A stretch of 64,000 nucleotides of DNA from Bacilli bacterium (lineage in GTDB: Bacteria; Bacillota_I; Bacilli_A; RFN20; CAG-826): assembly GCA_022641095.1 (NCBI GenBank), contig JALCDB010000002.1, positions 62,792-126,791 of the forward strand, read 5' to 3'. Shown piece after piece: positions 1-43,509 of this stretch; the stretch's first letter is position 1, and each line of letters starts with the position of its first letter. Under the pieces are notes generated by a model. It made no database searches. It had not been told where the DNA came from and worked only from the letters and a program-made list of their open reading frames with translations. Position numbers and translations under genes: made by a program.

Positions 1-904
1 TGAGGACCCCCTCCCCATGCTGCGGATGTCGATTGCGCCGAAAACGGCAGCGCAAAGAGAACGGCTGCTGGACGCTCTTACGCAACTTGCGGATACTGAC
101 CCGCTTTTGCGCTGCGAGGTGGATTCCATCACCCATGAGATCATTCTTTCTTTTTTGGGCCGGGTGCAGTTGGAGGTTGTTTCCGCTTTGCTGTCGGAAA
201 AATACAAGCTTGAAACAGTGGTAAAGGAACCCACCGTCATTTATATGGAGCGGCCGCTCAAAGCAGCCAGCCACACCATCCATATCGAGGTGCCGCCCAA
301 CCCGTTTTGGGCATCCATCGGACTGTCTGTTACACCACTCCCGCTTGGCTCCGGTGTACAATACGAGAGCCGGGTTTCGCTGGGATACTTGAACCAGAGT
401 TTTCAAAACGCTGTCAGGGATGGTATCCGTTACGGGCTGGAGCAGGGCTTGTTCGGCTGGAACGTAACGGACTGTAAGATTTGCTTTGAATACGGGCTTT
501 ATTACAGTCCGGTCAGCACGCCGGCGGACTTCCGCTCATTGGCCCCGATTGTATTGGAACAGGCATTGAAGGAATCAGGGACGCAACTGCTGGAACCTTA
601 TCTCTCCTTCACCCTCTATGCGCCCCGGGAATATCTTTCCAGGGCTTATCATGATGCACCGAAATACTGTGCCACCATCGAAACGGTCCAGGTAAAAAAG
701 GATGAAGTTGTCTTTACTGGCGAGATTCCCGCCCGCTGTATACAGGCATACCGTACTGATCTGGCCTTTTACACCAACGGGCAGAGCGTATGCCTTACAG
801 AACTGAAAGGGTATCAGGCCGCTGTCGGCAAGCCAGTCATCCAGCCCCGCCGTCCAAACAGCCGCCTGGACAAGGTGCGCTATATGTTTCAGAAGATAAT
901 GTAA
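1..904 (+). CDS. tet(W): Ribosomal-protection tetracycline resistance protein, Tet(W)-like; C-terminal ~295 aa only, 5' end lies outside the window
   Basis: Translation (…[35 protein letters not shown]…[15 protein letters not shown]) aligns colinearly with the C-terminal domains IV/V of TetM/TetO/TetW-family RPPs. The exact allele call (W vs O/32) is from memory of the family. Confidence 0.8.
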
Positions 905-935
905 CGTCTTGCGCAATCGATTTATCACGCACGCA

Positions 936-965
936 TAGACAAAACGGCTCTAAAAGTGCTATAAT
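936..965 (+). promoter_or_regulatory. Near-consensus sigma70-type promoter, TAGACA-18 nt-TATAAT, immediately downstream of the tet(W) stop and upstream of the HTH gene
   Basis: TAGACA at 936-941 and TATAAT at 960-965 with an 18-nt spacer. GGAG ribosome-binding site (RBS) and ATG at 992 follow. Confidence 0.4.
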
Positions 966-991
966 TCTGAATAACAACTACGGAGTTTAAT

Positions 992-1183
992 ATGGACTAC
1001 GCCCGACTAATCAAAGAACTGCGTTCAAAAATGCTTTTATCACAGATGGAGTTCGCTGAGTACCTTGGCGTTTCTTTTTCTGCAGTCAACAGATGGGAAA
1101 AAGGTCGCTATGAGCCAACCATAAAAACAAAGCGTAAGTTGAAAGAGCTTTTTATTAAATATGGATTGGTGGATCGAGACTAA
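992..1183 (+). CDS. XRE-family helix-turn-helix transcriptional regulator (63 aa)
   Basis: MLLSQMEFAEYLGVSFSAVNRWEKG is a classic Cro/CI-type HTH. An RBS precedes it. Confidence 0.7.
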   Translation: MDYARLIKELRSKMLLSQMEFAEYLGVSFSAVNRWEKGRYEPTIKTKRKLKELFIKYGLVDRD

Positions 1184-1184
1184 T

Positions 1185-1841
1185 ATGGACTATAAAAAAA
1201 TAACGGAAAATATAAAAAGCGGATTCACAAAGGATCAACTAAAAAGCTTAGATTTGATCACCGGGTTTGATTCGCTCAAGCTCGCCAATGGTGGCGATAA
1301 TGATGCAGAAGGATATCAGATTTTCACCCCCGCTTTTATCGTGAAAGATATGGTCAAAGCGATAGGGGAGAAAGACGTTTTTAATCCGGATAAAACAGTG
1401 CTCGAACCGACATCAGGTGATGGGGCGTTCACTACTTATATTTTATTAAGAAGATTAGAACGTGCGTTCAAGGAAGATAAAGATGAATTCGAGATCCAGG
1501 CACTAAAGTGCTTGTCTACCATCTATTCTATAGAGATGGATAAGGATCTAATTATCAAGCAAAGAAACAACATCCTGACTGTCTTCACGATATTTGGAAG
1601 GGATCATAAAATCGATTATAGCGATGGGTATCTTGATCTCGTCCGCTGCATGATCCTAACAAATTTTATGTGGGCTATGTTCAATGCGGATATTCCTGCA
1701 ACGTTCTTAATAGTCGAGGTGGCATATAAGATGCCAGAAGCAGAAAAAGGAAAAATGAAGTCGTTAGAATTCCCCGTCTGGGATATATCTGGCAACGGCG
1801 TCACATATCACATGGAAGGAGCGGAGATTAACTATGATTGA
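1185..1841 (+). CDS. Small MTase-fold protein with N6-adenine MTase motifs X and I but no canonical (D/N)PP(Y/F/W) motif
   Basis: FTPAFIVKDMV (motif X-like), LEPTSGDGAF (motif I), YSIEMD (motif II-like). The position expected for motif IV reads ILTNFMW. An alternative in-frame start lies at 1161. The gene overlaps the next one by 8 nt (ATGATTGA). Confidence 0.5.
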   Translation: MDYKKITENIKSGFTKDQLKSLDLITGFDSLKLANGGDNDAEGYQIFTPAFIVKDMVKAIGEKDVFNPDKTVLEPTSGDGAFTTYILLRRLERAFKEDKDEFEIQALKCLSTIYSIEMDKDLIIKQRNNILTVFTIFGRDHKIDYSDGYLDLVRCMILTNFMWAMFNADIPATFLIVEVAYKMPEAEKGKMKSLEFPVWDISGNGVTYHMEGAEINYD

Positions 1842-3567
1842 TAAAAAGAAGAATGATGCTCTTGAAGCCGAACAAACCTATAAAACAGCTGTTGAATCAG
1901 CTAATGACTACATTGAGAACTTCGATATTTTAGAAACCATCACAAATGTTGGTAACGACGAGGTTTTCACACCGAGAAAAACGTGTGATATGATGCTCGA
2001 TTCTCTCCCGGATGAAGTCTGGCATAACCCGAATTATAGATGGCTGAACCCGGCCACCAAAAATGGCATTTTTGAAAGGGAGATCGCAATAAGATTAGAC
2101 GAAGGTTTAAAAGATGTGATTCCGGATCAAGAAAAACGCAGAAAGCATATCTTACAGAACATGATTCATGCTATTGGTCAAACTAAATTTACGGCCAACG
2201 TAGCGAGAAGAACACTTTATTATTGTTCATCCGCAAATAGGGCTTGTGACGGAATACTAGCCGAAGATGGACACTACGTTAATGGATACGCGATTGGAAA
2301 CGGAACGTGGTTTGCTGATGAAGAAGGCAATATTAAAACACCATGTACTGATCATGAATTTGTCGATAGTGCGGGACGAAGAATGCCATCTACATGCAAG
2401 GGCGAGGAAAGAAAAAAATATAAATGTAAATATTGCGGCATCAGTGGAGTCTCAAACTATAACGATGCAAATCAAAGAGAAAAATATGCGTACGAATTAA
2501 TCCATATTAATCATTTGATAATTGGAAAGCACATGAGCAATAGATTCTTTGGAGGTAACAAAGATATGAAATTTGACATTATTATTGGTAATCCACCTTA
2601 TCAACTTAACGATGGCGGTGCACAAGCCTCGGCCAAACCTATTTATCAGCTGTTCGTAGATCAAGCAAAAGCTTTAAATCCACATTATCTATGCATGATT
2701 ATTCCTTCTAGATGGATGGCTGGAGGAAAGGGCTTAGATGACTTCAGAGCATCAATGCTAAAAGATAGGCACATTCGAGTATTACACGACTATACTGATG
2801 CTAAAGAATGCTTCCCAAATAATGAAATAAAAGGCGGAGTTTGTTACTTCCTCTGGAACGGAAAAGAAGAAGGAAAGTGCAAAATTTATAAACATACTGA
2901 TGGCACCATTTCAACAAGCACGAGATATCTCAAAGAGGATGGTGTTGATGTTTTTATTCGTGATGAAAGACTGATTGAAATTTTAAATAAGGTTAAAGCC
3001 AAAAAGTTCAAATCTTTCATGGATATCGTATCGCCAAGAAAACCGTTCGGTTTAGCAGGTGATTTCTTTAAGGATCCAAAGAAATATGATCTCCCACCTA
3101 TTAGTGATAAAAAAATCGAAGGGGGAATAACAATCTGTGGTCTTGATGAACATTTACAAAGAGTAAAAAGATATGTTCCACAGGATTATCCACTCCCTAA
3201 AAAAACCTATTTGCATGGATACAAAATGTTTATGGCTAGAAACCAAGGAAGTGGCACATTCGGAGAACCTTTCTCTGTTCCAATGTTTGCATACGACAAT
3301 GAAATATGTACAGAAACTTTTATTGTTATAGGCACATTTAAAACTGAACAAGAGATGAAAAACTGTTATTCCTATATCAAAACTAAGTTTTTTAGAGCTC
3401 TAGTTGGCATCCGAAAATTAGATCAAAACGCATCTCAAAGCATATATGAATATGCTCCGTTGCTTGATTTTACTAAGCCGTGGAATGATAAAGAACTTTA
3501 TGCAATGTTCGGACTTAGCGATGATGACATCAAATTTATTGAAGAGAACGTTCAGGAGATGAATTGA
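1834..3567 (+). CDS. Gamma-class N6-adenine DNA methyltransferase (577 aa) with a Cys-rich insertion and a C-terminal target-recognition region
   Basis: EVFTPRKTCDMMLD (motif X), LNPATKNGIF (motif I-like), DIIIGNPPYQ (motif IV), then LCMIIPSRWMAGG as in TaqI/Eco57I-like MTases. GGAGG RBS upstream. Confidence 0.7.
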   Translation: MIDKKKNDALEAEQTYKTAVESANDYIENFDILETITNVGNDEVFTPRKTCDMMLDSLPDEVWHNPNYRWLNPATKNGIFEREIAIRLDEGLKDVIPDQEKRRKHILQNMIHAIGQTKFTANVARRTLYYCSSANRACDGILAEDGHYVNGYAIGNGTWFADEEGNIKTPCTDHEFVDSAGRRMPSTCKGEERKKYKCKYCGISGVSNYNDANQREKYAYELIHINHLIIGKHMSNRFFGGNKDMKFDIIIGNPPYQLNDGGAQASAKPIYQLFVDQAKALNPHYLCMIIPSRWMAGGKGLDDFRASMLKDRHIRVLHDYTDAKECFPNNEIKGGVCYFLWNGKEEGKCKIYKHTDGTISTSTRYLKEDGVDVFIRDERLIEILNKVKAKKFKSFMDIVSPRKPFGLAGDFFKDPKKYDLPPISDKKIEGGITICGLDEHLQRVKRYVPQDYPLPKKTYLHGYKMFMARNQGSGTFGEPFSVPMFAYDNEICTETFIVIGTFKTEQEMKNCYSYIKTKFFRALVGIRKLDQNASQSIYEYAPLLDFTKPWNDKELYAMFGLSDDDIKFIEENVQEMN

Positions 3568-3568
3568 T

Positions 3569-6500
3569 ATGAAGGTAGATGTCTATAGATCAACTGAGAT
3601 CAACACTTCTGATAGCGTTAAGATATCTGGCAAGACCAGACAGTTCTTCCTTGACGAAGCAAACGACACCGATCAAGATCTCATTCTCCTATATATGTAT
3701 ATATTGCCTTCCTTCCAGGGCCATGGCGTCAAGGTTGGCATGGCAAAATGCAGACCAGAAGAAACTTTCTGGCACGGCATTAAAGCCAGGATCGCGGAGC
3801 AAAAGCACGAGCTTGCTTTAACTGACGACCAATACAGCAAATATGGCCTCAAACGCGAGGTCGTTTACTGGGGCGTCTGCGTTGATGCCCACAATGAATC
3901 GTTTAAGGATTATCACGTCCACGATGAGATCATGCACAACTGTGCTGGGCTCGCCGAGAAAGAGCAGGAGTGGTTCCAGAACGTTCCTACTGAAGAACTA
4001 ATATCCGCCTTCGAAGCATGCAGAAAAAACGATGTTTCAAAGGATATTTACACGCCTAGAAAAGAACAGGCTAAGGTGATCGAGGATCTGAAGGAGTACT
4101 TCGGCAAATATCCAACCGGTCACAGGTTCCTTTTGAACTGCAAGATGAGGTTCGGGAAATCCTTCACGACCTACAAATATTGTGAGGAAGCCGGTCTCAA
4201 TAAGATCTTGATCTTAACGTTCATTCCGGCGGTTGAGTCCTCTTGGAGAGACGATCTCTGCCATATCAAGAAGGAATATAAGTATTTCACCGACTTCAAT
4301 CTCAGAAAGCCCACGTTCGATCTAAAATCGCACACTGAGCCCTATGTAGTGTTTTTGTCGTTGCAGAACTACTTAGGCAGGGATAGCCAAAGTGCCGATG
4401 TCAAAGCCAAGATCAAGAAACTGCAGGACGTTGATTTCGATCTAGTCGTTCTTGATGAATACCATTTCGGTGCCTGGAACACCAGAACCCAGGACACTTT
4501 CGAGGACCTTGATAAAGATTATCAAAAGAACCTGAAGGACACTAAGGACGTCATCGCCAAGTTTGCGATCAAGACGAAGAAGACGATCTGCCTATCCGGA
4601 ACGCCATTCAGAGCATTGGCCCGCGGCGAATTCAACAACGAGTCCAGCTCGACTTACTCATATTTCGATGAGCAAAGGAACAAATATCCGAAGAGCGAAG
4701 AAAACGACTTCACAGTGGTGGATCCTAAGTATGCCGAATTCCCGGATATGAAGATATTCGGCTATAACATGACGAAGCTATTCGGCAACCTAACCTCCAG
4801 CGTTTTCTCCGATGACAAGATGCTCGGAAACAAATATTTTTCATTGAATAAGTTCTTCGAGACCAAGAAGGACGTCAACTATAACGAGGATTACGTCTTC
4901 ATTTATGAAGAAGAAATAAAACAGTGGCTGGAAATCATCAAGGGTGCCTCTATCCACGGCGACAAATTCCCTTATTCCAACCCTAAGATGAAGCAGAATA
5001 ACAAGCACACCCTTTGGCTCATGCCTACGGTTAGTTCCTGTATAGCGATGGCCAGGTTGCTGAAAGCCGATGATTATTTCTGCAAATATCAAATCATCAA
5101 TCTATCGGACAAAAGCGTGGGGTCCGGAACGGATGCCTATGATTTCTTGATGGATAACATCCAAGCGGCAAAGAACACGAATAAACTCGGGAGCATAGCG
5201 ATCACGGTCAACAAACTGACGATCGGTGTAACGGTGAAGGAGTGGTTCAGTATCTTCGTTTTGAAGGATCTATCCAGCCCGGAATCCTATTTCCAAGCCA
5301 TCTTCAGAATCCAGACGCCATTCAAGAAAAACGGCCAAATTCTCAAAGAGAGTGGTTATGTTTACGACTTCAATATCGACAGGGCCGCTGCCTTGTTATT
5401 GAAATACGCCGAAGAGAGCTCAAGGGACACGAACTATACGAAGCTACAAATTGCTAGATTGATCGTTAAGTACCTGCCTATCTTCGTCAATGGCGACATG
5501 AGTCATCCGATTTCTGACAAGGTCTTCTATGAACTCGCCGAATATGGCGATGCCAGCGGCGTGCCGCTTTCAAGAAAGATCACAGACACTTCAAAAACCA
5601 CAAGGATGATGGATGACGAGGTGATTGCAGAGATGCTTAACGATAAAGAAGTAAGCGAGATCATTAAGCACGTCTTTGCTCATGCGAAATTTGGAAAAAC
5701 AAAAACACGCACAATCCCTCCTAAACCAGAAGACGGATTCCAGACCAAGATCGCCAAGGAAGGCCGCGACAAAGGCTATGCCTTAGGCTTGGAGGATTCC
5801 AAAAAATACGTTGACTTGGACGACAACGAAGTCCAGGCCGCTTTCGAGAAAGCAATCGAGGATTACGTGCTCGAGTATTGCTCCAAAGACTATGATGAAA
5901 ACCAGGTCATCTGGTATACGAACGGCTTCAAGAAAGGATACGAAGGCGGTGTCAACGCCCCGATCAAGAAGATTCAATGCGGAAAAGATGACGGCGTTAA
6001 GTTCGTGGATCAAGTCAAAGGCAAATTCGGACCTAATATCAAATATACGGAGGCTACGAAGCAGCAGATTGAGAACTTCGTCAAAGCCTATCTTAACGAT
6101 ATAAACAACATCCCTAAGGAATATAGGGGAATGCTCTACAAACGCTGGTATTGCGAGTCCTTTAGAAAAGCGGTAAGAAACGTCTTAACCCCGGTAGTGG
6201 ACAGCAAAGATAAGAATTCCGTTGAAGATGCCGATAATGTTATGAAGCATATCTTGGCCAGGCTGTTTGAATTCCTTTATATCTCCGTTTACAGAGAAAC
6301 AACCTTCCAGGAGATCTTCAGTAATGCTGACCCTAACGTTTTCTTAGAGGCTGTCGGTATCACGAAGAAGGACTTCGAGGTTTTGAATAAATATCACATC
6401 TTCCAAGAAGACGTTCTAAATAACTACATCCATGATTTCTTTGTTAACGAATCACTCGGATCAAAACTAGATCTCAATGACGCCAAGATCAAAGCCCAGT

Positions 6501-6907
6501 ACAGAAACAGCTTTGACTGGTTTGGCTTTGGTGTTGATGATGAAGGGGAAATCCATGTGGATGAGAATGTCGGAACTCAGATCATCAAAGATGAAGAACC
6601 CGAAAATGATGAGCAAGATATTGTCGAATCCGAGGTCGCTCCTGAATCTGAATCGATTATGGAAGAGGCCGCTGCAGAACCCGAACCAGAACCCGAGCCC
6701 GATCCGGAAATCGCTCCTGTTCCTGAACCAGTTAAAAAGGATCCGGTCGAACAGATAGAGGAATTGCTCCGAAAGAATCCTAAAGGAATGAAATCCGGCA
6801 AGATCGCCGAGCTTTTAGGCGTTAGCAAACGCGATATTAATAAGATCATGTACGCCAATAAAGACAAGTTTACGGTTGATTTTTTCTTCAATTGGAAACT
6901 TAAATAG
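3569..6907 (+). CDS. 1112-aa multidomain protein: N-terminal T5orf172/GIY-YIG-like domain, SNF2/SF2 helicase core, acidic PE-repeat linker, C-terminal HTH
   Basis: N-terminal LYMYILPSFQGHGVKVGMAK parallels the T5orf172 signature of the next gene. RFGKSFT (motif I), VLDEYH (DExH), LSGTPF (motif III), QAIFRIQT (degenerate motif VI). EPEPEPEPDPEIAPVPEP linker. C-terminal KSGKIAELLGVSKRDINKIMY. Confidence 0.65.
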   Translation: MKVDVYRSTEINTSDSVKISGKTRQFFLDEANDTDQDLILLYMYILPSFQGHGVKVGMAKCRPEETFWHGIKARIAEQKHELALTDDQYSKYGLKREVVYWGVCVDAHNESFKDYHVHDEIMHNCAGLAEKEQEWFQNVPTEELISAFEACRKNDVSKDIYTPRKEQAKVIEDLKEYFGKYPTGHRFLLNCKMRFGKSFTTYKYCEEAGLNKILILTFIPAVESSWRDDLCHIKKEYKYFTDFNLRKPTFDLKSHTEPYVVFLSLQNYLGRDSQSADVKAKIKKLQDVDFDLVVLDEYHFGAWNTRTQDTFEDLDKDYQKNLKDTKDVIAKFAIKTKKTICLSGTPFRALARGEFNNESSSTYSYFDEQRNKYPKSEENDFTVVDPKYAEFPDMKIFGYNMTKLFGNLTSSVFSDDKMLGNKYFSLNKFFETKKDVNYNEDYVFIYEEEIKQWLEIIKGASIHGDKFPYSNPKMKQNNKHTLWLMPTVSSCIAMARLLKADDYFCKYQIINLSDKSVGSGTDAYDFLMDNIQAAKNTNKLGSIAITVNKLTIGVTVKEWFSIFVLKDLSSPESYFQAIFRIQTPFKKNGQILKESGYVYDFNIDRAAALLLKYAEESSRDTNYTKLQIARLIVKYLPIFVNGDMSHPISDKVFYELAEYGDASGVPLSRKITDTSKTTRMMDDEVIAEMLNDKEVSEIIKHVFAHAKFGKTKTRTIPPKPEDGFQTKIAKEGRDKGYALGLEDSKKYVDLDDNEVQAAFEKAIEDYVLEYCSKDYDENQVIWYTNGFKKGYEGGVNAPIKKIQCGKDDGVKFVDQVKGKFGPNIKYTEATKQQIENFVKAYLNDINNIPKEYRGMLYKRWYCESFRKAVRNVLTPVVDSKDKNSVEDADNVMKHILARLFEFLYISVYRETTFQEIFSNADPNVFLEAVGITKKDFEVLNKYHIFQEDVLNNYIHDFFVNESLGSKLDLNDAKIKAQYRNSFDWFGFGVDDEGEIHVDENVGTQIIKDEEPENDEQDIVESEVAPESESIMEEAAAEPEPEPEPDPEIAPVPEPVKKDPVEQIEELLRKNPKGMKSGKIAELLGVSKRDINKIMYANKDKFTVDFFFNWKLK

Positions 6908-6916
6908 GTGACGAAT

Positions 6917-7579
6917 ATGGAACAAGAGAACTTTGGATATATTTATATTCTTACAAACCCGTCATTCCCGGATTACGTGAAGATCGGATACGCGGATGAC
7001 GTCAAATCGAGAGTGGAGCAGCTCAACAGAAGCGAGTGCACCCCATTCGCCTTTAGGATCTACGCCACGTATAAAGTGAGTGATCGCCTTAAAGACATCC
7101 CGGTCCATCAATTGATCGACATACTTAATCCGAGCTTGCGAAGCAAGGATGAAGTGGACGGGAAGCTTAGGGTGCGTGAATTCTATGCCATGCTCCCAGA
7201 GGAAGCATATTCGCTCCTCGAGAAGATTGCCAAGATCAACGGGTTAGAAAAGAACCTGGTCCTTTATAAGAAGACTAAGGCTGACGAGGCAGATGAGAAG
7301 GCCGCCGATAAGATCAGCCAATTAAGCAAGAATCGCCATCATTTCAGGGATTGCGAGTTTTCATCGAGCCTGACTGGGCACACATATATAGGCAAGACGG
7401 GCGATAACGGCACGCTTTGCATCATTGATAAACAAACAGGAGAGGAAGTTCCTAACAATTCCAAGCCTTCGAAAAAGGCTATTGTTAAGCAGGCAGTGGT
7501 GGACCTTGGCGGATCCGCCGATGGCCACGACACCCTCTATCAGCTGTACCATCAACTGACCAAGATCCTGGGGAAGTAG
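6917..7579 (+). CDS. T5orf172 (GIY-YIG superfamily-like, MUG113) domain protein (~220 aa)
   Basis: GYIYILTNPSFPDYVKIGYADDVKSRVEQLN matches the T5orf172 signature. The ORF track starts at a GTG at 6908; the ATG at 6917 has a GGTGA RBS. Confidence 0.6.
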   Translation: MEQENFGYIYILTNPSFPDYVKIGYADDVKSRVEQLNRSECTPFAFRIYATYKVSDRLKDIPVHQLIDILNPSLRSKDEVDGKLRVREFYAMLPEEAYSLLEKIAKINGLEKNLVLYKKTKADEADEKAADKISQLSKNRHHFRDCEFSSSLTGHTYIGKTGDNGTLCIIDKQTGEEVPNNSKPSKKAIVKQAVVDLGGSADGHDTLYQLYHQLTKILGK

Positions 7580-7592
7580 GAAGTGAATATTG

Positions 7593-8591
7593 ATGACCCC
7601 ATTAAACTACTCTCGCTTTTCACACATATTCTTCGATCACGCCATTTATAAGGATGTGACCGCTGTTTGCCGTGCGTTAATCGGAACTTTAGTCAACAAT
7701 GGGAATATAGAAAACTCGAGAGGCGAGATCTATACGATAAACAGCCAAGTAGCTAAGGAGTTCTACGATGGGACAGCCAGCATATATCCGGAATTAGCGT
7801 CCGGTGCTGATTATGTCCTTAGCAAGGATGAAGAATCCGACTCCATGTGCGAGATGATCCTCGAAGATAATGTCGCCGTTGCCCAGAGAAATGGCCTTTT
7901 TGATGACCTTCTCGAAGCCATTAAAGACGATGGTTTAATGAATGCTAGAACAAAGGCTGAGATGATCGGCTTATATGACGCCAAGGAATACGTGAAATTC
8001 TTTAGAGCGGCTTTCGCCTATGCCATGTCCACGGAGAACAAAACGGCTGCAAAAAAGGCGAAAAGAAAGGCACCATCAACTTTAAGTGAAAGAGTGGATG
8101 CGATCAAAGAGATGCTTGAAGAACTAAGACTTAAAAAGCCCGTTTTAATCGTGATTCCAGATGATCTGGAAGATAACGAAGTTATCTATGCAAGCGAGCT
8201 TTTTAAGGCTTACTCAGAGGATGCCATGGTGGCTTTCGCAACGAAGTCTGACCTTGTCGCCTATCCGAAATATGCCCGTGATTTTGAAAGGCAGAGAAAA
8301 GATTTCTATGCTGCCGAATCAATCAGGGTCGGGTTAAGGGACTGCCAATTGGAAGACAGCAACTTTGATGAGCTCAAAAAAGAAATAAATGACGGCGTGG
8401 AAATGACAGCCAGTGCTTTGTATAGTTCCGGCCTTGAAAAGATAAGATCGGTAATGGATAAGGCGGTCACCGTCCCGCTCTCATCTTTGCTGGCTTTGAT
8501 ACCTTCATGGATCGGGCCTTCAGAGAGAAAAGGCGTGGTTCACATGCTCGTCAATGACGGAAAGATAAAATGGGTGGACGAAGATGAATAA
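7593..8591 (+). CDS. Hypothetical 332-aa protein, first gene of a three-gene cassette (LmuA-position, no recognisable catalytic motif)
   Basis: ORF is coupled by an 8-nt overlap to the next gene. No motif recognised by eye. Confidence 0.4.
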   Translation: MTPLNYSRFSHIFFDHAIYKDVTAVCRALIGTLVNNGNIENSRGEIYTINSQVAKEFYDGTASIYPELASGADYVLSKDEESDSMCEMILEDNVAVAQRNGLFDDLLEAIKDDGLMNARTKAEMIGLYDAKEYVKFFRAAFAYAMSTENKTAAKKAKRKAPSTLSERVDAIKEMLEELRLKKPVLIVIPDDLEDNEVIYASELFKAYSEDAMVAFATKSDLVAYPKYARDFERQRKDFYAAESIRVGLRDCQLEDSNFDELKKEINDGVEMTASALYSSGLEKIRSVMDKAVTVPLSSLLALIPSWIGPSERKGVVHMLVNDGKIKWVDEDE

Positions 8592-9024
8592 GTTATATAA
8601 CTCCTCGTTTGAAATGGAACTAAGGACGCTCATGGTCCTTTATATCAGCCCTCTCGAATCCATGTCAGCAGACCAGATCTACTCGTTCGATTTCATCTGC
8701 TGCTACGGGGAGGATTTCGAAGTATCAGAAAATAACCTTCACGGGGACTCCGCGTATAAGTTTGGAGAACTGGCCCTGAGGAAGAGCGTGATCAACGATG
8801 CGGTCAAGGATCTGGTCGTCCGCGGTATGATCGATGTGGTCACCGGAGACGGCTTCAAATACAAGATCAACGATCGCGGGATCGAATTCATATCATCGCT
8901 GGATAACCAATATTCAGATTTATATACAAAGATCGCAGGCGATGCATTCACCAAATATGGGAAGCTCACCGAGCAAGAACTGCTAGCGATCATAAACAAA
9001 GCGGCAATGGGGAGGAATAAGTAA
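8584..9024 (+). CDS. Hypothetical 146-aa protein (middle gene of the cassette, LmuC-position)
   Basis: Translationally coupled on both sides (8591/8584 overlap; 9024/9027). Confidence 0.4.
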   Translation: MNKLYNSSFEMELRTLMVLYISPLESMSADQIYSFDFICCYGEDFEVSENNLHGDSAYKFGELALRKSVINDAVKDLVVRGMIDVVTGDGFKYKINDRGIEFISSLDNQYSDLYTKIAGDAFTKYGKLTEQELLAIINKAAMGRNK

Positions 9025-9026
9025 GT

Positions 9027-10784
9027 ATGCTTAAAATCACGAGATTATGGGCTAAATCAACAGACGGATCCATGTCGGAGATCCCTTTCACCGATGGATT
9101 GAATATTATCCACGGCCCATCAAACACCGGAAAGACTGTCATTGTCGACTGCATCGACTATATCTTCGGCGGCAAATTCACTCCAAATCCAACTCTAAAC
9201 CTCGAAGTGGTGGGAATGGATATGGATGCAAACGGGCATCATTATCACCTAAGTAGGGCATTCAATAGTCCTAACGTCCACGTTGAATCGGACGATGATA
9301 ACATCAAAGACGGAGATTACAGCTCACAGAAAAAACCTTCGCTTGGAGATATATATCTCCGTATGCTTGGAATGGAGCCTCCGATCAAGATCCTGTCATC
9401 GCTTAGCTATACCTTCCAGAACCTAACGTTTAGGGAGTTCTCCCATACCATCGTTTTGAAAGAGGATGACATAAGGGATAGAAAAAGCATTCTTATGCCA
9501 ACCCAGAAGACGTCCGAGACCGTCCTCAAATCGGCGGTACTTTATTTGATAAATGGGCTCACCTACGCGGATCCGAACATCGAGAGCCCTAAGGAGCGTG
9601 CGAAAAGGAAAAAGATCCTGGCGAAATATATCAACGAGAGGATCGGCAAATATAAAACCCTCATAGAACAATATGAGAAGGACAAAAAAGAAGGCTCTGA
9701 TCAGTTCAAGACATCGATTGACGATATTTTGGGCCAAATCGAGTCCACGCAAGGCCAGTTGAACGATAATATCGCCGCTTCGGGAAAACTATCTGGCGAG
9801 TTGATGGAAATCAGCGACAAGATCGCCGAATGCGAGAACCTTGGTGACAAATATACGATTCTTCATTCTCAATATGAGTCCGATCTCCGCAGAATGCAGC
9901 TCATCATAGATGGCGAAACGCATGCGGACGAAGTCGAGAAGATCACTAAGTGTCCGTTCTGCAACGGAGAGCTGCCTAAAGAACAGGAGCAATCCTGCGT
10001 TGAAGCGGCACAAGCTGAATTGCTTAAACTGATCCCTCAAATCAAGGACCTCGAAGATGCTCAGGGTGATCTAGTCAAGGAAAAGGAAGAACTCCAAGCC
10101 AAGAAAGCCGAACTTGAAGGAAAGATAAATGAGCTCGAGGCCAAGATCAACAGCGAGATCAAACCGCTTTTAGCAAAGCTAAGGAATCAACTCAACCTTT
10201 ACAAGGAATCTATCCATAGCGAGGCGGAATATGAAAGCGATAAAAAGATCCTCGCCGATTTGGAGAACCAGCTACGCGAATTGACCGAGGAAAAAGTCGA
10301 GAACGAACGCTTTAATCAGCTCGAGTGCTTCGATGACAGGTTCATCAACACGATAACCAGATATCTCAGAGAGGCATTGGCCGCCTCGAATTACGAGGGT
10401 GCCGAAACATGCATATTTGACATTAATCAGTTCGATGTCAGGGTTAACGGCCAAATGAAACAGCACGAAGGCGAAGGCTACCGCGGATTGCTTAATTCGA
10501 TCACGGCTGTCGCGTTCCACAGGATGCTGCTAGACAACGCCAAATATAAACCTGGATTGCTAATCATGGATTCGCCGATCCTGTCATTGAAGGAAGCGGA
10601 TAGTGTTCCGTTGGACGACTCAATGAAGAAGGGGTTATTCAACTACCTGGCACAGACCGCCGAGAACATGCAGATCATAGTGGTGGAGAACGAGCTGCCT
10701 GAATTCGACAGCGAGAAAGCCAACCTGATCCATTTCACAAAAGACGACAATGGCCGCTACGGCTTCATATCAAACGTCAGATAA
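9027..10784 (+). CDS. SMC/Rad50-like ABC ATPase with a central coiled coil bearing a CxxC hook-like motif (Lamassu LmuB / DUF3732-like)
   Basis: Walker A IIHGPSNTGKTV. Long heptad-rich middle region with CPFCNG. C-terminal GEGYRGLLNSITAVAFHRML…PGLLIMDSPILSLKE (Walker B/D-loop-like). Confidence 0.6.
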   Translation: MLKITRLWAKSTDGSMSEIPFTDGLNIIHGPSNTGKTVIVDCIDYIFGGKFTPNPTLNLEVVGMDMDANGHHYHLSRAFNSPNVHVESDDDNIKDGDYSSQKKPSLGDIYLRMLGMEPPIKILSSLSYTFQNLTFREFSHTIVLKEDDIRDRKSILMPTQKTSETVLKSAVLYLINGLTYADPNIESPKERAKRKKILAKYINERIGKYKTLIEQYEKDKKEGSDQFKTSIDDILGQIESTQGQLNDNIAASGKLSGELMEISDKIAECENLGDKYTILHSQYESDLRRMQLIIDGETHADEVEKITKCPFCNGELPKEQEQSCVEAAQAELLKLIPQIKDLEDAQGDLVKEKEELQAKKAELEGKINELEAKINSEIKPLLAKLRNQLNLYKESIHSEAEYESDKKILADLENQLRELTEEKVENERFNQLECFDDRFINTITRYLREALAASNYEGAETCIFDINQFDVRVNGQMKQHEGEGYRGLLNSITAVAFHRMLLDNAKYKPGLLIMDSPILSLKEADSVPLDDSMKKGLFNYLAQTAENMQIIVVENELPEFDSEKANLIHFTKDDNGRYGFISNVR

Positions 10785-10802
10785 AACGTTATATAAGAAC
10801 AC

Positions 10803-10834
10803 GCCTCATCACGCAAAGTGGTGGGGCTTTTTTC
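10803..10834 (+). terminator. Rho-independent terminator closing the nine-gene block
   Basis: GCCTCATCAC-gcaaa-GTGGTGGGGC hairpin (with G·U pairs) followed by TTTTTTC. Confidence 0.5.
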
Positions 10835-10907
10835 ATGTCCGAAAACAGTCTACTTATTTTCACTTATTTTGCACTTATCCTGGCTTTTTGAGTAATCGAA
10901 ATGACCT

Positions 10908-10941
10908 GGGTTAAGATGGATCCGTGGCCGATATAAAGACC
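10908..10941 (+). promoter_or_regulatory. Copy 1 of a conserved phage regulatory element (GGTTA…GTGGCCGAT(A/T)TAAAG…), upstream of the sigma-like gene
   Basis: GGTTAAGATGGATCCGTGGCCGATATAAAGACC. Compare the copies at 15851 and 40018. Confidence 0.35.
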
Positions 10942-11118
10942 ACATAAAACTTCTCGTTGAAGAGATGGGCCCATCGAAACAGCGGGATGCATCGCGGGTT
11001 CCTGGAAAGGGATCACAGCAATGCCTCCTGTTTTCAAAATGCCTTTAAAAGGCAGAAATAGGCCGATCGCTCCGCTTTGCATCCTGCTCCTCAAACGGGA
11101 GAAAGGACCAGCAAAGCT

Positions 11119-11661
11119 ATGACAAACAACGAAAAACCAAAGATCGTAATTGACGACCCATCATTACTCAAACCGACAGAGGACAGACCTTACCCTTACC
11201 AGCTCGAAGGCACGAACATCATCATCTACTTATCGGAGAAGGACTACACCCCGATCCACCGCATGGAGGAAGCCGAACGAATGGCTTCCAGACGCGAGAG
11301 CAGATGCCTGATCCCCGCCAAAGAGCGTGGCGAATGGATGAGGTGCCAGGGTGACTGCTCACAGTGCCCCCGCACCCGCACAGGTCGTCCTCTTTCTTTA
11401 GATCAGCATGCAGAAGAAACGGGAAACGAGCCGGCAGGGGATGACGATATCGCCGCCGAACTGGACAAAAAGGAGCGTTTAGAGAGCCTTTTGTACGCCA
11501 TCCCTGAATTAGATCCAATCGACCAGAAAATCGTGTCCCTGTACCTGAATTACGCAACCGAGAGCCAAATAGCTGCCGAGTGTGGGGTATCGCAGCCCGC
11601 GATAAACAAAAGACTGAAGAATCTCGTCACCAAGCTCAGGGAAATCATCAAAAAATCATGA
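11119..11661 (+). CDS. Sigma-70 region-4-like / phage transcriptional regulator with a Cys cluster
   Basis: C-terminal IVSLYLNYATESQIAAECGVSQPAINKRLKNLVTKLRE is a sigma region 4 HTH. CQGDCSQCP cluster. The track ORF starts at 11077; the ATG at 11119 is preferred. Confidence 0.5.
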   Translation: MTNNEKPKIVIDDPSLLKPTEDRPYPYQLEGTNIIIYLSEKDYTPIHRMEEAERMASRRESRCLIPAKERGEWMRCQGDCSQCPRTRTGRPLSLDQHAEETGNEPAGDDDIAAELDKKERLESLLYAIPELDPIDQKIVSLYLNYATESQIAAECGVSQPAINKRLKNLVTKLREIIKKS

Positions 11662-40436: not shown

Positions 40437-40638
40437 GAAGATCGAATCCTATCTCTCCTCTTTTAAGGTCGCTGAAACCATGTTCAAAAAGGGCGTGATC
40501 AATGATGGGGAACTCAGAAAAATAGAAGCCGAACTAGCCAAGAAATACGGCCTGCCATCGAACTCAATTGTCCGAATTGACTTGCTAAGTTCTCTTACCA
40601 GAGAAAACATGAATTCGGGTGATATAAATGAAAGTTAA
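40423..40638 (+). CDS. Hypothetical small protein (71 aa)
   Basis: ORF overlapping the neighbouring genes. Confidence 0.3.
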   Translation: MEVSKKIESYLSSFKVAETMFKKGVINDGELRKIEAELAKKYGLPSNSIVRIDLLSSLTRENMNSGDINES

Positions 40639-41941
40639 AGCATTAAAAGCTTACAAAAAACTGCCGAGCAAAAGAAGGGTCGCTGCCTATGCCAGGGTCT
40701 CATCCGCCAAGGACACGATGTACCATTCGCTTTCTTACCAGATCAGCTATTACAACGCACTGATCCAGAAAAGAAACGACTGGCTCTTTTGCGGCGTTTA
40801 CGCGGACGAGGCGTTGAGCGGCACCAAGGATACTAGAAAAAACTTCCAAAGGCTGCTCCAGGATTGCAGGGATCACAAAATCGACCTGATCATCACTAAA
40901 TCGATCTCCAGGTTCGCAAGAAATACAGTGACACTGCTTGAAACTGTCAGGGAACTGAAGGATCTCGGGATCGAGGTATATTTCGAAGAGCAGAATATCT
41001 GGTCGCTATCCGGCGATGGGGAGCTGATGCTTTCGATCCTAGCATCCTATGCTCAGGAAGAGGCCCGATCGGTATCCGAGAATATGAAGTGGAGGATCAA
41101 GAAAGACTTCCAGGAAGGGCTCATCTGGGGAGGCGACCATTGCTACGGCTACAAAGTAGTGAACCGCAGGCTGGTGATAAACCCGGAAGAAGTCGAGCTC
41201 GTTAAAAGGATATTTGAAATGTACGTCAGCGGTATCGGCGACAGAGCCATTGCCACGCAATTCAACAAAGAGGGGATCCCGACCCACCAAGGCGGACCTT
41301 GGAAACAGGAAACGATCAGGGGAATCCTAAGGAATAGGAATTACACCGGTGATCTCATCCTCCAGAAAACCTATAGCTCGGACTACATAAACAAGACCAA
41401 TAAATACAATCGCGGCGAAAAGGACCTATATATCGTTGAAGATGACCATGAACCCATTATCTCTAAAGAGATGTTCGCCAAGGCCGCGGAGGTACGCAAG
41501 AACCGAGTCGAGAAAAAGCACGGCGGACTAAGAACGAAAATTAAGAGGCCATTCGATGACCTGATCGTTTGCGGAACCTGCGGAAAAGGCTACCGATTCA
41601 GGACGGGACCATACAGGGATAGCTATATCTGTAGGAACTTCGCTGATTACGGAAAATCGGCATGCCAAAGTAAGCAAATCCCGGATCGAGTCTTAAAAAA
41701 AGTGACCGCCGAGGTGCTTTCGATACCTGAATTCGATGAAAGCGTCCTTAGGGCGAATATATGCAAGATAGTGGCCAAGAACGGAAATTTGCTCGAATAC
41801 CACTTCATAAACGGCGATGTTAAAGAAATCCACTGGGACGACCCTAAGCGATCCGATGGGTGGACCGAAGAAATGAAAGCCGCAGCAAGACTCAAAGCGA
41901 AAGAAAGACAAGAAAGGAAGGAAAAAGAATGCCAAAAGTAA
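40628..41941 (+). CDS. Large serine recombinase (resolvase/invertase N-terminal domain + recombinase domain + zinc ribbon)
   Basis: VAAYARVSSAKD with catalytic Ser, …ITKSISRFARN…, and a C-terminal Cys cluster (CGTCGKGYRF…). Confidence 0.85.
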   Translation: MKVKALKAYKKLPSKRRVAAYARVSSAKDTMYHSLSYQISYYNALIQKRNDWLFCGVYADEALSGTKDTRKNFQRLLQDCRDHKIDLIITKSISRFARNTVTLLETVRELKDLGIEVYFEEQNIWSLSGDGELMLSILASYAQEEARSVSENMKWRIKKDFQEGLIWGGDHCYGYKVVNRRLVINPEEVELVKRIFEMYVSGIGDRAIATQFNKEGIPTHQGGPWKQETIRGILRNRNYTGDLILQKTYSSDYINKTNKYNRGEKDLYIVEDDHEPIISKEMFAKAAEVRKNRVEKKHGGLRTKIKRPFDDLIVCGTCGKGYRFRTGPYRDSYICRNFADYGKSACQSKQIPDRVLKKVTAEVLSIPEFDESVLRANICKIVAKNGNLLEYHFINGDVKEIHWDDPKRSDGWTEEMKAAARLKAKERQERKEKECQK

Positions 41942-43509
41942 CGATTATTCCATCAACGATCAACCAAAAAACGAGAATGCCTAAGTTATCCAAGGCAAAA
42001 AGGCGTGTTGCCGCTTACGCTCGTGTTTCAACGGATAGCGATGAGCAGTTCACATCCTTCGAGGCACAGGTTGATTATTACACCAAATTCATCATGGCCA
42101 ATCCGGACTGGGAATTCGTCAAGGTATATGCCGATGAGGGCATCACCGGAACCAACACAAAGAACCGCGTCCAATTCAACAAAATGGTGGATGACGCACT
42201 GAACGGGAAGATAGATCTCATCGTGACCAAATCGGTGAGCAGATTCGCCAGAAACACAGTGGATAGCCTTACAACGATCCGCAAATTGAAGGATAAAGGA
42301 GTGGAGTGCTTTTTTCAAAAAGAGAACATCTACACCTTCGATAGCAAAGGGGAGCTTCTTCTTACGATAATGGCATCCCTCGCCCAGGAGGAATCGAGAT
42401 CCATATCCGAGAACGTAACCTGGGGTACAAGGAAGTCGTTCAGCGATGGAAAAGTCCACCTTGCATACAAGCACTTCCTTGGATACAGAAAAGGACCGGA
42501 CGGAAGACCCGAGATCGTGGAGGAAGAAGCCGTGATCGTCAGGGCGATTTATAGAATGTTCCTTGAAGGATGTTCCTATTCCCAGATCGCGGATGAACTG
42601 ACAGCTAGAGGCTTCAAAACAACGAGGGGTAAGGATAAATGGAATCTATCGACAATAAGGTCCATTCTAAAGAATGAGAAATACAAAGGCGATGCCATAC
42701 TCCAGAAAACCTTCACCACGGACTTCCTTACGCACAAGCACAAGATCAACGAGGGCGAAGTCCCGCAATATTACGTTGAAAACAGCCACGCTGCGATCAT
42801 TGACCCGGAAGAATGGGATTTAGTTCAACTGGAGATCAAACGCCGCGAGGATCTGGGCAAAACGTATAGTGCGAAAGGCCCATTCGCATGCAAGATTGTA
42901 TGCGGTGAGTGCGGTGGCTTTTATGGCCTCAAGGTTCTCCATTCAACGGATCCATATAAAAACTCAAAATATATCTGCAACGGCAAATATAAAGGTGATC
43001 ACGTATGCGAGACTCCATCGCTTACCGAAGATCAGATCAAAGCGGCATTCGTCAAAGCATTTAATAGGTTAAACGAAAACAAGGATTCGATTCTTGAAGA
43101 TTGCGAGATGATGTATCGCTTGCTCGATAACACCGAGGAGATCGATAGGGCTATCGCCGAAACGAATGACGAGATCGAAGTGGTGACCGGGCTGACCAGT
43201 AACCTGATAAAGGAAAACAGTGCCACAGCACAGGATCAGGTCGAATATAAAAAGAAATACGATCGCCTCTGTGCCAGATACAATAGGCTCCTTGATAAAC
43301 TCTCCGACCTAACCAAAGAAAAGGAACGTAAGGCCGCACAAAAGGGCTCGTTCAGGCTATTTGCGGAAATATATAGAAGGCAACCGGAAGTCCTTGATGA
43401 ATGGGACGAGAAAGTATGGACACTGACGGTGGATCGAGTGGTGGTCAATAAGGATCGAACGCTAACCTTCGCCTTCTACTCAAATCAGAAGATCACGGTC
43501 GAGATCTGA
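41929..43509 (+). CDS. Large serine recombinase, second tandem copy
   Basis: VAAYARVSTDSDEQ…VTKSVSRFARN…CGECGGFYG. Preferred start MPKVTII at 41929; the track start is 41860. Confidence 0.85.
   Translation: MPKVTIIPSTINQKTRMPKLSKAKRRVAAYARVSTDSDEQFTSFEAQVDYYTKFIMANPDWEFVKVYADEGITGTNTKNRVQFNKMVDDALNGKIDLIVTKSVSRFARNTVDSLTTIRKLKDKGVECFFQKENIYTFDSKGELLLTIMASLAQEESRSISENVTWGTRKSFSDGKVHLAYKHFLGYRKGPDGRPEIVEEEAVIVRAIYRMFLEGCSYSQIADELTARGFKTTRGKDKWNLSTIRSILKNEKYKGDAILQKTFTTDFLTHKHKINEGEVPQYYVENSHAAIIDPEEWDLVQLEIKRREDLGKTYSAKGPFACKIVCGECGGFYGLKVLHSTDPYKNSKYICNGKYKGDHVCETPSLTEDQIKAAFVKAFNRLNENKDSILEDCEMMYRLLDNTEEIDRAIAETNDEIEVVTGLTSNLIKENSATAQDQVEYKKKYDRLCARYNRLLDKLSDLTKEKERKAAQKGSFRLFAEIYRRQPEVLDEWDEKVWTLTVDRVVVNKDRTLTFAFYSNQKITVEI

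What the first reader, a model, noticed from the sequence alone, without database searches (positions are those of the whole stretch)
1185..7579. Candidate undescribed restriction–modification-like module: two gamma N6-MTase-fold genes + T5orf172/GIY-YIG-like–SNF2 helicase–HTH fusion + stand-alone T5orf172 protein
The 577-aa MTase has intact NPPY and a long C-terminal domain of the kind used for target recognition. Next to it lies an 1112-aa protein whose N-terminus (LYMYILPSFQGHGVKVGMAK) parallels the T5orf172 signature of the following gene (GYIYILTNPSFPDYVKIGYAD). This is followed by an SF2/SNF2 helicase core with a DEYH box. A MTase plus helicase-nuclease logic resembles Type III/ISP restriction–modification. 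Here, though, the MTase is gamma-class and the putative nuclease is GIY-YIG-like (T5orf172) rather than PD-(D/E)xK, and a second free T5orf172 protein accompanies it. T5orf172–helicase combinations are known to be enriched in defence islands, but I do not recognise this exact architecture as a named system.
Basis: partly seen in the sequence, partly recalled or inferred. Interest (0 to 1): 0.8.

Follow-up and report, generated by a model that had tools for sequence, protein, structure and literature searches.

The report
Three-gene restriction–modification system with GIY-YIG motor nuclease
The region encodes a widespread but untested type of ATP-driven restriction–modification system, carried here on a prophage: a DNA methylase with a swappable target-recognition domain, a helicase fused to a GIY-YIG-type nuclease, and a small catalytically dead methylase-like subunit.

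Summary
Four intact genes lie at 1185-7579, with NPPY in the 577-aa methylase, a DEYH box in the 1112-aa protein, and a T5orf172 gene after it.

Profile searches confirm that the N-terminus of the 1112-aa protein is a T5orf172 (GIY-YIG superfamily) domain. 39 of 49 diverse family members hit Pfam T5orf172.

The conserved core is three genes in fixed order:
- a small half-methylase, with SAM-binding motifs and no NPPY in 0 of 72 sequences;
- an Eco57I-family methylase with a target-recognition domain (TRD);
- the T5orf172–SF2 motor protein.

This trio occurs in 59 of 59 genome loci and 65 of 67 viral loci with enough upstream DNA, across bacterial phyla. Some lineages fuse nuclease, motor and methylase in the domain order of Type ISP enzymes. 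LlaBIII is the best structural match for both modelled proteins.

A near-identical element (helicase 99%) carries a different TRD (29% identity), as expected for restriction specificity swapping.

The free T5orf172 gene (PADLOC candidate PDC-S57) and the HTH gene are occasional accessories. Lamassu follows directly downstream.

Verdict: a new variant of a known kind, a split, Type ISP/Type I-like ATP-dependent restriction–modification system. It is annotated only generically and no experimental study was found. Restriction activity itself is inferred, not shown.

The parts
936..965 (+). Promoter-like site (TAGACA, 18 nt spacer, TATAAT, extended TG) upstream of the HTH gene. Candidate promoter for the whole defence cassette.
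   Evidence: 11 of 12 matches, the best in 850-11200. This is a consensus match only.
992..1183 (+). 63-aa HTH_3 (Xre-type) regulator, an accessory and possible controller protein.
   Evidence: Pfam HTH_3 1.3e-10. A same-strand copy directly upstream occurs in L101 and L001-L005. HTH genes lie upstream of only about 10 of 70 loci.
1185..1841 (+). Small subunit (218 aa from ATG 1185; the ORF is open from 1161). It is the N-terminal SAM-binding half of a gamma-class N6A methylase fold and lacks the catalytic motif IV.
1834..3567 (+). 577-aa Eco57I-family gamma N6-adenine methylase with its own target-recognition domain (M/S subunit).
   Evidence: Pfam Eco57I 3.7e-29. PADLOC MTase_II 1.4e-52, and REase_MTase_IIG model positions 987-1321. 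NPPY is invariant in 30 diverse relatives, and H174/C198/C201/H224 are invariant, a probable Zn site.
2767..3555 (+). Variable C-terminal half of the methylase, the putative target-recognition domain.
   Evidence: There is no DNA similarity to L101 here, while the flanks are 85% and 97% identical. Protein identity falls from 95-100% to 17-38%. TRD identity is uncoupled from helicase identity in 28 pairwise comparisons.
3680..4018 (+). T5orf172 (GIY-YIG superfamily) nuclease domain of the 1112-aa protein (aa 38-150).
   Evidence: 39 of 49 family members hit Pfam T5orf172. Y42, K55, G57, D114 and E134 are invariant and R74 is at least 90% conserved. AF2 pLDDT is about 90. The Rhizobium homologue is named 'GIY-YIG nuclease family protein' in RefSeq.
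4058..5488 (+). SF2 ATPase/translocase core (aa 164-640): motif I GKS (K197), motif II DEYH (296-299), motif III SGTP, motif VI QxxFRxQ.
   Evidence: All motif residues are invariant. ResIII in 42 of 49 and SNF2-rel in 10 of 49 members. PADLOC REase_MTase_IIG model positions 159-595, 1.4e-29. Foldseek top hit is Type ISP LlaBIII 4xqk, 7.8e-11, followed by SNF2 remodellers.
5489..6448 (+). Alpha-helical C-terminal domain (aa 641-960). Conserved across the family; probable docking or coupler region.
   Evidence: tblastn matches in most loci run to query residue 957. The AF2 model is helical with pLDDT about 50-90. The function is inferred.
6743..6904 (+). C-terminal Z-alpha-like winged-helix domain (aa 1059-1112), after a disordered acidic, proline-rich linker (aa 962-1054).
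   Evidence: 17 of 20 close-clade C-termini hit Pfam z-alpha (best 4.6e-5). The profile hits ZBP1, ADAR1, PKZ, E3L and ORF112 Z-alpha structures in the PDB (8.5e-4 to 0.1). K1087, N1091, Y1095 and W1109 are conserved.
6908..7579 (+). Stand-alone T5orf172 protein (223 aa). An accessory or independent candidate defence gene, not part of the conserved core.
   Evidence: Pfam T5orf172 6.3e-11. PADLOC PDC-S57 5.8e-59. Found next to the helicase gene only in window, L101, L007 and L131.
7590..10784 (+). Neighbouring Lamassu system (LmuA with CTD6, LmuC/MC2, LmuB ABC/SMC ATPase). Context, not part of the finding.
   Evidence: PADLOC LmuA 4.4e-54, LmuC 2.5e-45, LmuB 4.8e-163. Pfam CTD6 and MC2.
10803..10827 (+). 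Strongest terminator-like hairpin, closing the eight-gene cassette.
   Evidence: 10-bp stem with 6 GC pairs and a T-run, directly after lmuB.

Best explanation
Genes 1185-6907 encode a three-subunit, ATP-dependent restriction–modification system. In effect it is a Type ISP enzyme split into separate proteins, with a different nuclease.

- The 577-aa Eco57I-family methylase recognises a target through its own C-terminal recognition domain and makes m6A, which protects host and prophage DNA.
- The 1112-aa protein is the restriction subunit. An SF2 double-stranded-DNA translocase is loaded at unmethylated sites by the methylase. It moves along DNA using ATP, and its N-terminal T5orf172/GIY-YIG domain nicks or cuts.
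- The 218-aa subunit is a catalytically dead half-methylase that keeps the SAM-binding motifs. It most likely acts as a SAM-binding structural or regulatory partner of the methylase.

The HTH gene (992-1183) is an occasional controller. The free T5orf172 gene (6908-7579) is an add-on.

Shown here: domain identities, conserved catalytic residues, strict three-gene synteny, natural fusions, recognition-domain swapping, and defence-island or prophage context.

Inferred: methylation, ATP-driven translocation, cleavage, and the role of the small subunit.
For: 1. Domains. Eco57I MTase with invariant NPPY. T5orf172 in 39 of 49 family members, with Y42, K55, G57, D114 and E134 invariant and R74 at least 90% conserved. 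All SF2 motifs invariant.
3. Synteny. The order small gene, MTase, then T5orf172-helicase on one strand holds in 59 of 59 genome loci and 65 of 67 viral loci with at least 2.6 kb upstream. These span Bacteroidota, Actinomycetota, Bacillota, Pseudomonadota, Spirochaetota, Planctomycetota, Patescibacteria and two archaeal MAGs.
4. Fusions. Proteins of 1330-1524 aa join T5orf172, helicase and Eco57I MTase. One example is E. faecium pAT02-a (1445 aa), which keeps the small gene upstream. 15 viral loci are fused.
5. Recognition-domain mosaicism. Window versus L101: helicase 99%, small subunit 97%, TRD 29%. Conversely L099 versus L008: helicase 71%, TRD 79%.
6. Context. Neighbours include Lamassu, SIR2, AAA_21, GmrSD, MrcB/NOV_C and SLFN-type helicases. 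The window copy lies on a prophage, and 175 IMG/VR contigs encode relatives.
7. T5orf172 domains are experimentally active nucleases in ICP1 Gp88/Odn (PMC8263062).
8. A related logic, MmeI-like MTase + helicase + GIY-YIG, was proposed as restriction–modification in 2009 (PMC2731913). Homologues of that cluster protect Vibrio crassostreae from some phages, as cited in PMC9973331.
Against: - There is no functional data for any member of this family. The analogous B. subtilis dnmA-yeeB-yeeC cluster showed no restriction or phage defence (PMC9973331).
- Motif I of the methylase is unusual (DPxTKSGVF instead of GxG), so its activity is not certain.
- The need for a dead half-methylase is unexplained.
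- The window protein alone does not reach significance for T5orf172 (E=0.061). That call rests on family-level transitivity.
- AF2 confidence is low for aa 660-800 and 960-1055.
Confidence: 0.65

Rival explanations
1. One five-gene system. HTH, two methylase-fold proteins, the helicase and the free T5orf172 protein work together, with the free T5orf172 protein as an essential nuclease partner, as YeeC is thought to be for YeeA/YeeB.
For: The gene order MTase, helicase, T5orf172 mirrors dnmA-yeeB-yeeC. The T5orf172 gene starts one base after the helicase stop here and overlaps it in L007. It recurs with two helicase variants only 70% identical, and in L131. No terminator separates them.
Against: The gene is absent from 59 of 59 genome loci and 66 of 67 viral loci, and from the close relatives L001-L013 and L097-L099. 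The helicase already carries its own T5orf172 domain with conserved catalytic residues. The free protein matches a single-gene PADLOC candidate, PDC-S57.
Confidence: 0.12
2. A methylation-marked defence that blocks replication without cutting, in the manner of BREX, or a methylase kept for epigenetic regulation with a decayed restriction arm, as argued for B. subtilis DnmA.
For: BREX PglX is also an Eco57I-type methylase (own knowledge; PglX and BrxX appear among weak structural hits). B. subtilis dnmA-yeeB-yeeC gave no restriction. The MTase has a non-canonical motif I.
Against: All three genes are full length here and in every relative examined. Nuclease and ATPase catalytic residues are invariant across phyla. 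Recognition-domain swapping between near-identical elements indicates selection on specificity. No BREX or DISARM partner genes are present.
Confidence: 0.13
3. A prophage tool for superinfection exclusion or host takeover, not a host restriction–modification system. The motor-nuclease would degrade competing or host DNA, while methylation marks the phage's own genome.
For: The window copy lies at the early end of a prophage, next to DUF2800/PD-(D/E)xK, PolA and D5 primase genes. L101 has the same layout. 175 IMG/VR contigs encode relatives.
Against: Most of the 589 genome hits lie in ordinary chromosomal or plasmid contexts. Mechanistically this is the same restriction–modification activity, differing only in who benefits. 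It is a variant of the main explanation, not a true alternative.
Confidence: 0.1

Closest known systems
Type ISP restriction–modification enzymes (LlaGI, LlaBIII)
   Same: Same parts: an N-terminal nuclease, an SF2 dsDNA translocase, a gamma N6A methylase and a recognition domain. Fused relatives have the same order. LlaBIII is the best solved-structure match for both the motor protein and the small subunit.
   Different: Here the parts are split over three genes, with methylase genes first. The nuclease is T5orf172/GIY-YIG, not Mrr-type PD-(D/E)xK. An extra, strictly conserved, non-catalytic half-methylase subunit is present. No sequence-level PDB hit.
B. subtilis DnmA(YeeA)-YeeB-YeeC cluster and its Vibrio crassostreae homologues
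   Same: A gamma-class methylase with its own recognition domain, an SF2 helicase and a T5orf172 nuclease, proposed as restriction–modification-like (PMC2731913). The gene order MTase, helicase, T5orf172 matches the window. The family's nuclease domain aligns with the T5orf172 domain of YeeC (24.9 bits).
   Different: The methylase is Eco57I-family, not MmeI-like. The helicase is not a YeeB orthologue (5 bits; different motif I and II contexts). The nuclease is fused to the helicase. YeeABC has no small half-methylase subunit described.
Type I restriction–modification (HsdR/HsdM/HsdS)
   Different: No HsdS; recognition is built into the methylase. The nuclease fold differs. The methylase family is Eco57I.
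PADLOC/REBASE 'Type IIG' model PDLC03626 (REase_MTase_IIG)
   Same: The 1112-aa protein matches model positions 159-595 and the 577-aa protein matches positions 987-1321. 48 of 49 family members hit it.
   Different: The model describes one polypeptide. The window has separate genes, the match covers only parts of the model, and ATP-dependent motors are not a Type II feature.
PADLOC candidate PDC-S57 (single-gene T5orf172 protein)
   Same: The 223-aa protein matches at 5.8e-59.
   Different: This applies only to the accessory gene, not to the three-gene system. No publication on PDC-S57 was found.

Membership tests
Type ISP restriction–modification | All activities in a single polypeptide | tested here: not met
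   Three separate ORFs in the window. Fused forms exist only in other lineages.
Type ISP restriction–modification | N-terminal Mrr-family PD-(D/E)xK nuclease | tested here: not met
   The N-terminal domain is T5orf172/GIY-YIG.
Type ISP restriction–modification | SF2 helicase-like dsDNA translocase | tested here: met
   Motifs I, II (DEYH), III and VI are invariant. Foldseek top hit is LlaBIII at 7.8e-11.
Type ISP restriction–modification | Gamma-class N6-adenine methylase followed by a recognition domain | tested here: met
   Eco57I Pfam domain, NPPY, and motif order X-I...IV. Variable C-terminal domain.
Type ISP restriction–modification | ATP-driven translocation and collision-dependent cleavage between head-to-head sites | not testable with these tools
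   Needs biochemistry.
Type I restriction–modification | Separate HsdS specificity subunit with two recognition domains | tested here: not met
   No HsdS-like gene is present. PADLOC, Pfam and NCBIfam give none.
Type III restriction–modification | Beta-class Mod methylase, and Res with a C-terminal PD-(D/E)xK nuclease | tested here: not met
   The methylase is gamma-class Eco57I. The nuclease is N-terminal T5orf172.
DnmA/YeeA-YeeB-YeeC cluster | MmeI-like methylase lacking the nuclease domain | tested here: not met
   The 577-aa protein hits Eco57I, not the MmeI families. Only the small subunit's relatives hit MmeI_Mtase.
DnmA/YeeA-YeeB-YeeC cluster | YeeB-type helicase | tested here: not met
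   The A1 profile versus YeeB (sequence read from Fig. S5 of PMC9973331) gives about 5 bits, which is generic SF2 similarity only.
DnmA/YeeA-YeeB-YeeC cluster | T5orf172 (GIY-YIG) nuclease component | tested here: met
   The family's N-terminal domain matches the YeeC T5orf172 domain (24.9 bits). A free T5orf172 gene is also present.
Type IIG (REBASE sense; PADLOC PDLC03626) | One protein carrying both cleavage and methylation, with no NTP-dependent motor | tested here: not met
   The match is split over two proteins, and an intact SF2 ATPase is present.
PDC-S57 (PADLOC candidate) | Match to the PDC-S57 HMM | tested here: met
   5.8e-59 for the 223-aa protein only.
Lamassu (neighbouring genes 7590-10784) | LmuA effector, LmuC middle component and LmuB ABC/SMC ATPase | tested here: met
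   PADLOC 4.4e-54, 2.5e-45 and 4.8e-163. Pfam CTD6 and MC2.

The most novel reading that the evidence does not exclude
This is a distinct and very widespread class of NTP-dependent restriction–modification system that has never been studied. It occurs in at least 589 species and at least 391 clusters at 50% identity.

Its cutting module would be a GIY-YIG/T5orf172 domain riding on a Type ISP-like motor, and it would obligatorily need a catalytically dead half-methylase as a third subunit, for instance as a SAM sensor that licenses restriction.

In the clade found here, a C-terminal Z-alpha-like domain might additionally read left-handed or under-wound DNA produced behind the translocating motor.
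Probability: 0.3. Interest if true: 0.7.

Novelty: new variant of a known kind. Interest (0 to 1): 0.5.

Why it matters
All characterised ATP-dependent restriction enzymes (Types I, ISP and III) cut with PD-(D/E)xK nucleases. A common family that couples a translocase to a GIY-YIG-type nuclease would widen the known mechanisms of motor-driven restriction.

The system also depends on a pseudo-methylase subunit, which is unexplained.

It would give current defence-annotation tools a three-gene signature they miss or mislabel as 'Type IIG' or orphan methylases. It could also account for many unassigned m6A motifs in gut-bacterial methylomes.

Here the system sits with Lamassu on a prophage next to a tetracycline-resistance gene. 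It is therefore mobile cargo that can shape gene flow in gut Firmicutes.

Tried and rejected
- Megablast of 950-7600 against plasmids and phages found no match.
- Sequence or profile searches of the PDB with the 1112-aa protein, the 577-aa protein, A1 and A3 found nothing significant.
- NCBIfam has no family for any of the four proteins.
- Extra genes between the methylase and helicase genes in 11 loci were checked as a possible fourth component. They are unrelated to one another, so they are cargo.
- Genes downstream of the helicase were checked as a conserved fourth component. None recurs apart from duplicate contigs.
- The HTH gene as a core component was rejected. It lies upstream of only about 10 of 70 loci, and some copies are divergent.
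- Orthology with YeeB was rejected.
- P0391 looked like a natural fusion of the small subunit and the MTase. It is a single 1.3-kb contig with a frameshifted end, so it was not used as evidence.
It was replaced by A5.
- Literature searches for PDC-S57, T5orf172 + helicase + methyltransferase, GIY-YIG + Type ISP, and GIY-YIG + Eco57I found no paper on this family.

Full report
**1. What is at the coordinates**

ORF listing shows a tight same-strand run.
- HTH gene, 992-1183.
- A 226-aa ORF at 1161-1841. The likely start is ATG 1185, giving 218 aa as in the near-identical locus L101.
- A 577-aa ORF at 1834-3567.
- A 1112-aa ORF at 3569-6907.
- A 223-aa ORF at 6908-7579.
- Three further genes up to 10784.

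Upstream, 17-904 is the 3' end of a Tet(M/W/O)-type ribosomal protection gene.

Pfam calls are Eco57I for the 577-aa protein (3.7e-29), T5orf172 for the 223-aa protein (6.3e-11) and HTH_3 for the 63-aa protein. The 226-aa and 1112-aa proteins get no Pfam hit.

PADLOC calls genes 7590-10784 as Lamassu LmuA/LmuC/LmuB, and the 223-aa protein as the single-gene candidate PDC-S57 (5.8e-59). It places the 1112-aa and 577-aa proteins on two different parts of one model, REase_MTase_IIG. The 1112-aa protein covers model positions 159-595 and the 577-aa protein covers 987-1321. That was the first sign of a split version of a fused helicase–methylase enzyme.

**2. The 1112-aa protein**

The family is large.
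- The word-indexed search gave more than 1849 hits.
- The exhaustive search gave 391 cluster representatives at E of 1e-30 or better.
- At least 589 species genomes encode a relative, across bacterial phyla and in two archaeal MAGs.
- 175 IMG/VR contigs encode a relative.

On its own, the N-terminal 180 aa scores only E=0.061 against T5orf172, although over the whole profile. In an alignment of 49 diverse members (A1), 39 hit T5orf172 (best 1.4e-11), 27 hit MUG113, 42 hit ResIII, 10 hit SNF2-rel, and the 6 long members also hit Eco57I.

Invariant or nearly invariant residues fit a GIY-YIG-type active site: Y42, K55, G57, R74, D114 and E134. They also fit a working SF2 ATPase: G196-K197, D296-E297-x-H299, S343-G344-T345, Q576 and R580.

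An HMM of the N-terminal domain finds the window's own free T5orf172 protein (18.5 bits) and B. subtilis YeeC (24.9 bits).

The AF2 model is confident for aa 1-160 and 165-640. Its best PDB match is the Type ISP enzyme LlaBIII (7.8e-11). SNF2 remodellers, XPB and SauUSI follow.

After a helical domain (aa 641-960) and a disordered acidic, proline-rich linker, the last 55 aa form a small winged-helix domain. In the close clade it is Z-alpha-like.

**3. The methylase**

Thirty diverse relatives (A3) keep NPPY, an unusual motif I (DPxTKSGVF), and an invariant H/C/C/H set between motifs III and IV.

The C-terminal half behaves as a recognition domain. Against L101 the flanking DNA is 85% and 97% identical, but 2767-3555 has no DNA similarity. 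Protein identity falls from 95-100% to 17-38%.

Among eight systems, recognition-domain identity is uncoupled from helicase identity. Window versus L101 gives 99% helicase and 29% TRD. L099 versus L008 gives 71% helicase and 79% TRD. This mosaic pattern is what restriction specificities show.

**4. The small protein**

It shares motif X and motif I with the methylase N-terminus (hhalign 96.5%, E 7.4e-10). Its relatives hit MmeI_Mtase (25 of 31) and N6_Mtase (13 of 31).

None of 72 relatives has an NPPY-like motif. It is therefore the SAM-binding half of a gamma methylase without the catalytic loop.

The family is very large. 7995 of the 8000 scored candidates pass E of 1e-3, nearly all are 213-245 aa, and sources name them 'SAM-dependent DNA methyltransferase' or 'restriction endonuclease subunit M'.

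**5. What belongs together**

I called ORFs in all fetched loci and searched them with HMMs of the three proteins.
- Among species genomes, 59 of 59 loci with at least 2.6 kb upstream of the helicase gene carry the small gene and the methylase gene upstream on the same strand.
- Among viral contigs the figure is 65 of 67, and 15 of them carry nuclease–helicase–methylase fusions.

RefSeq plasmids show the same trio under generic names. Rhizobium phaseoli pRphaN671a has 'N-6 DNA methylase', 'Eco57I ... methylase domain-containing protein' and 'GIY-YIG nuclease family protein'. E. faecium pAT02-a has a two-gene form next to optrA: a 248-aa small subunit and a 1445-aa fusion.

Other candidate components did not hold up.
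- Genes inserted between the methylase and helicase genes in 11 loci are unrelated cargo.
- No downstream gene recurs.
- The free T5orf172 gene accompanies the helicase only in the window, L101, L007 and L131.
- An HTH gene lies upstream in about 10 of 70 loci.

The system is thus three genes. The HTH and free T5orf172 genes are accessories.

In the window, one good promoter-like site (936-965) and one strong terminator (10803-10827) bracket all eight genes. This suggests a co-transcribed defence cassette. That is consensus evidence only.

**6. Context**

Window 11-44 kb is a prophage. It has DUF2800/PD-(D/E)xK, PolA, D5 primase-helicase, SNF2, terminase, portal and capsid genes, plus two large serine recombinases. 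L101 repeats the cassette and the first phage genes.

Relatives elsewhere sit beside SIR2, AAA_21, GmrSD, MrcB/NOV_C and SLFN-type helicase genes.

**7. Mechanism**

The most likely reading is a split, Type ISP/Type I-like, ATP-dependent restriction–modification system.
- The methylase with its recognition domain marks self DNA.
- It recruits the T5orf172-motor subunit to unmarked sites.
- The small pseudo-methylase is a structural or SAM-sensing partner.

Domain content, conserved residues, synteny, fusions and recognition-domain swapping are shown. Enzymatic activities are inferred.

T5orf172 domains are proven nucleases in phage ICP1 (PMC8263062).

The nearest described idea is Morgan et al. 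2009 for YeeA/YeeB/YeeC (PMC2731913). That cluster gave no restriction in B. subtilis, but homologues protect Vibrio crassostreae (PMC9973331). The present helicase is not a YeeB orthologue.

**8. Novelty and score**

No paper on this family was found, and no solved structure is related by sequence. However, the genes are annotated generically, relatives feed a PADLOC 'Type IIG' model, and the logic was anticipated.

I rate it a new variant of a known kind, with interest 0.5. It is a good experimental target and not a categorical surprise.

Noticed in passing
window 6743-6904 (aa 1059-1112 of the 1112-aa protein): The C-terminal domain is a Z-alpha-like winged helix. 17 of 20 close homologues hit Pfam z-alpha (best 4.6e-5). 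A profile hits ZBP1, ADAR1, PKZ, E3L, ORF112 and I73R Z-alpha structures. The K-x3-N-x3-Y spacing and a conserved Trp match the Z-DNA-contacting residues of ADAR1. The wing prolines are absent.
   Followed up: partly
homologues P0029, P0039, P0048, P0090, P0094, P0114 (e.g. L007 10001-13786): Some close relatives (about 1255-1273 aa) carry a GGACT/AIG2-like (PF06094) domain inserted before the C-terminal winged helix. The role of this domain in a restriction subunit is unknown.
   Followed up: no
window 7590-10784: A complete Lamassu system (LmuA with CTD6, LmuC/MC2, LmuB) follows the free T5orf172 gene directly. The same arrangement occurs in L101.
   Followed up: partly
window 2353-2505 (aa 174-224 of the 577-aa methylase): Invariant H174, C198, C201 and H224 lie in an insertion between methylase motifs III and IV in all 30 relatives. 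This is a probable zinc site not described for Eco57I-type methylases.
   Followed up: no
window 11077-44100: A prophage: sigma-like gene, DUF2800/PD-(D/E)xK, PolA, D5 primase-helicase, SNF2, TerL, portal, capsid and two large serine recombinases (40628-43509). GC rises from about 0.48 to about 0.57 after about 49 kb, which is probably host chromosome.
   Followed up: partly
window 17-904: The 3' end of a Tet(M)/Tet(W)/Tet(O)-family ribosomal protection gene abuts the defence cassette. Resistance and defence cargo therefore travel next to each other. In E. faecium pAT02-a, a fused relative sits beside optrA.
   Followed up: no
L021, L023, L024, L025, L032, L034, L039, L060, L064, L075, L078: Unrelated small ORFs of 148-458 aa are inserted between the methylase and helicase genes of otherwise conserved operons. 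Some are membrane-like or of unknown function. They may be hitch-hiking cargo or anti-anti-restriction genes.
   Followed up: partly
L001-L005, L010-L013, L016 (small subunit genes): A second, longer form of the small subunit (about 328-346 aa) has an N-terminal extension and a C-terminal CxxC motif. It replaces the roughly 215-aa form in some close relatives, with only about 26% identity to it.
   Followed up: partly
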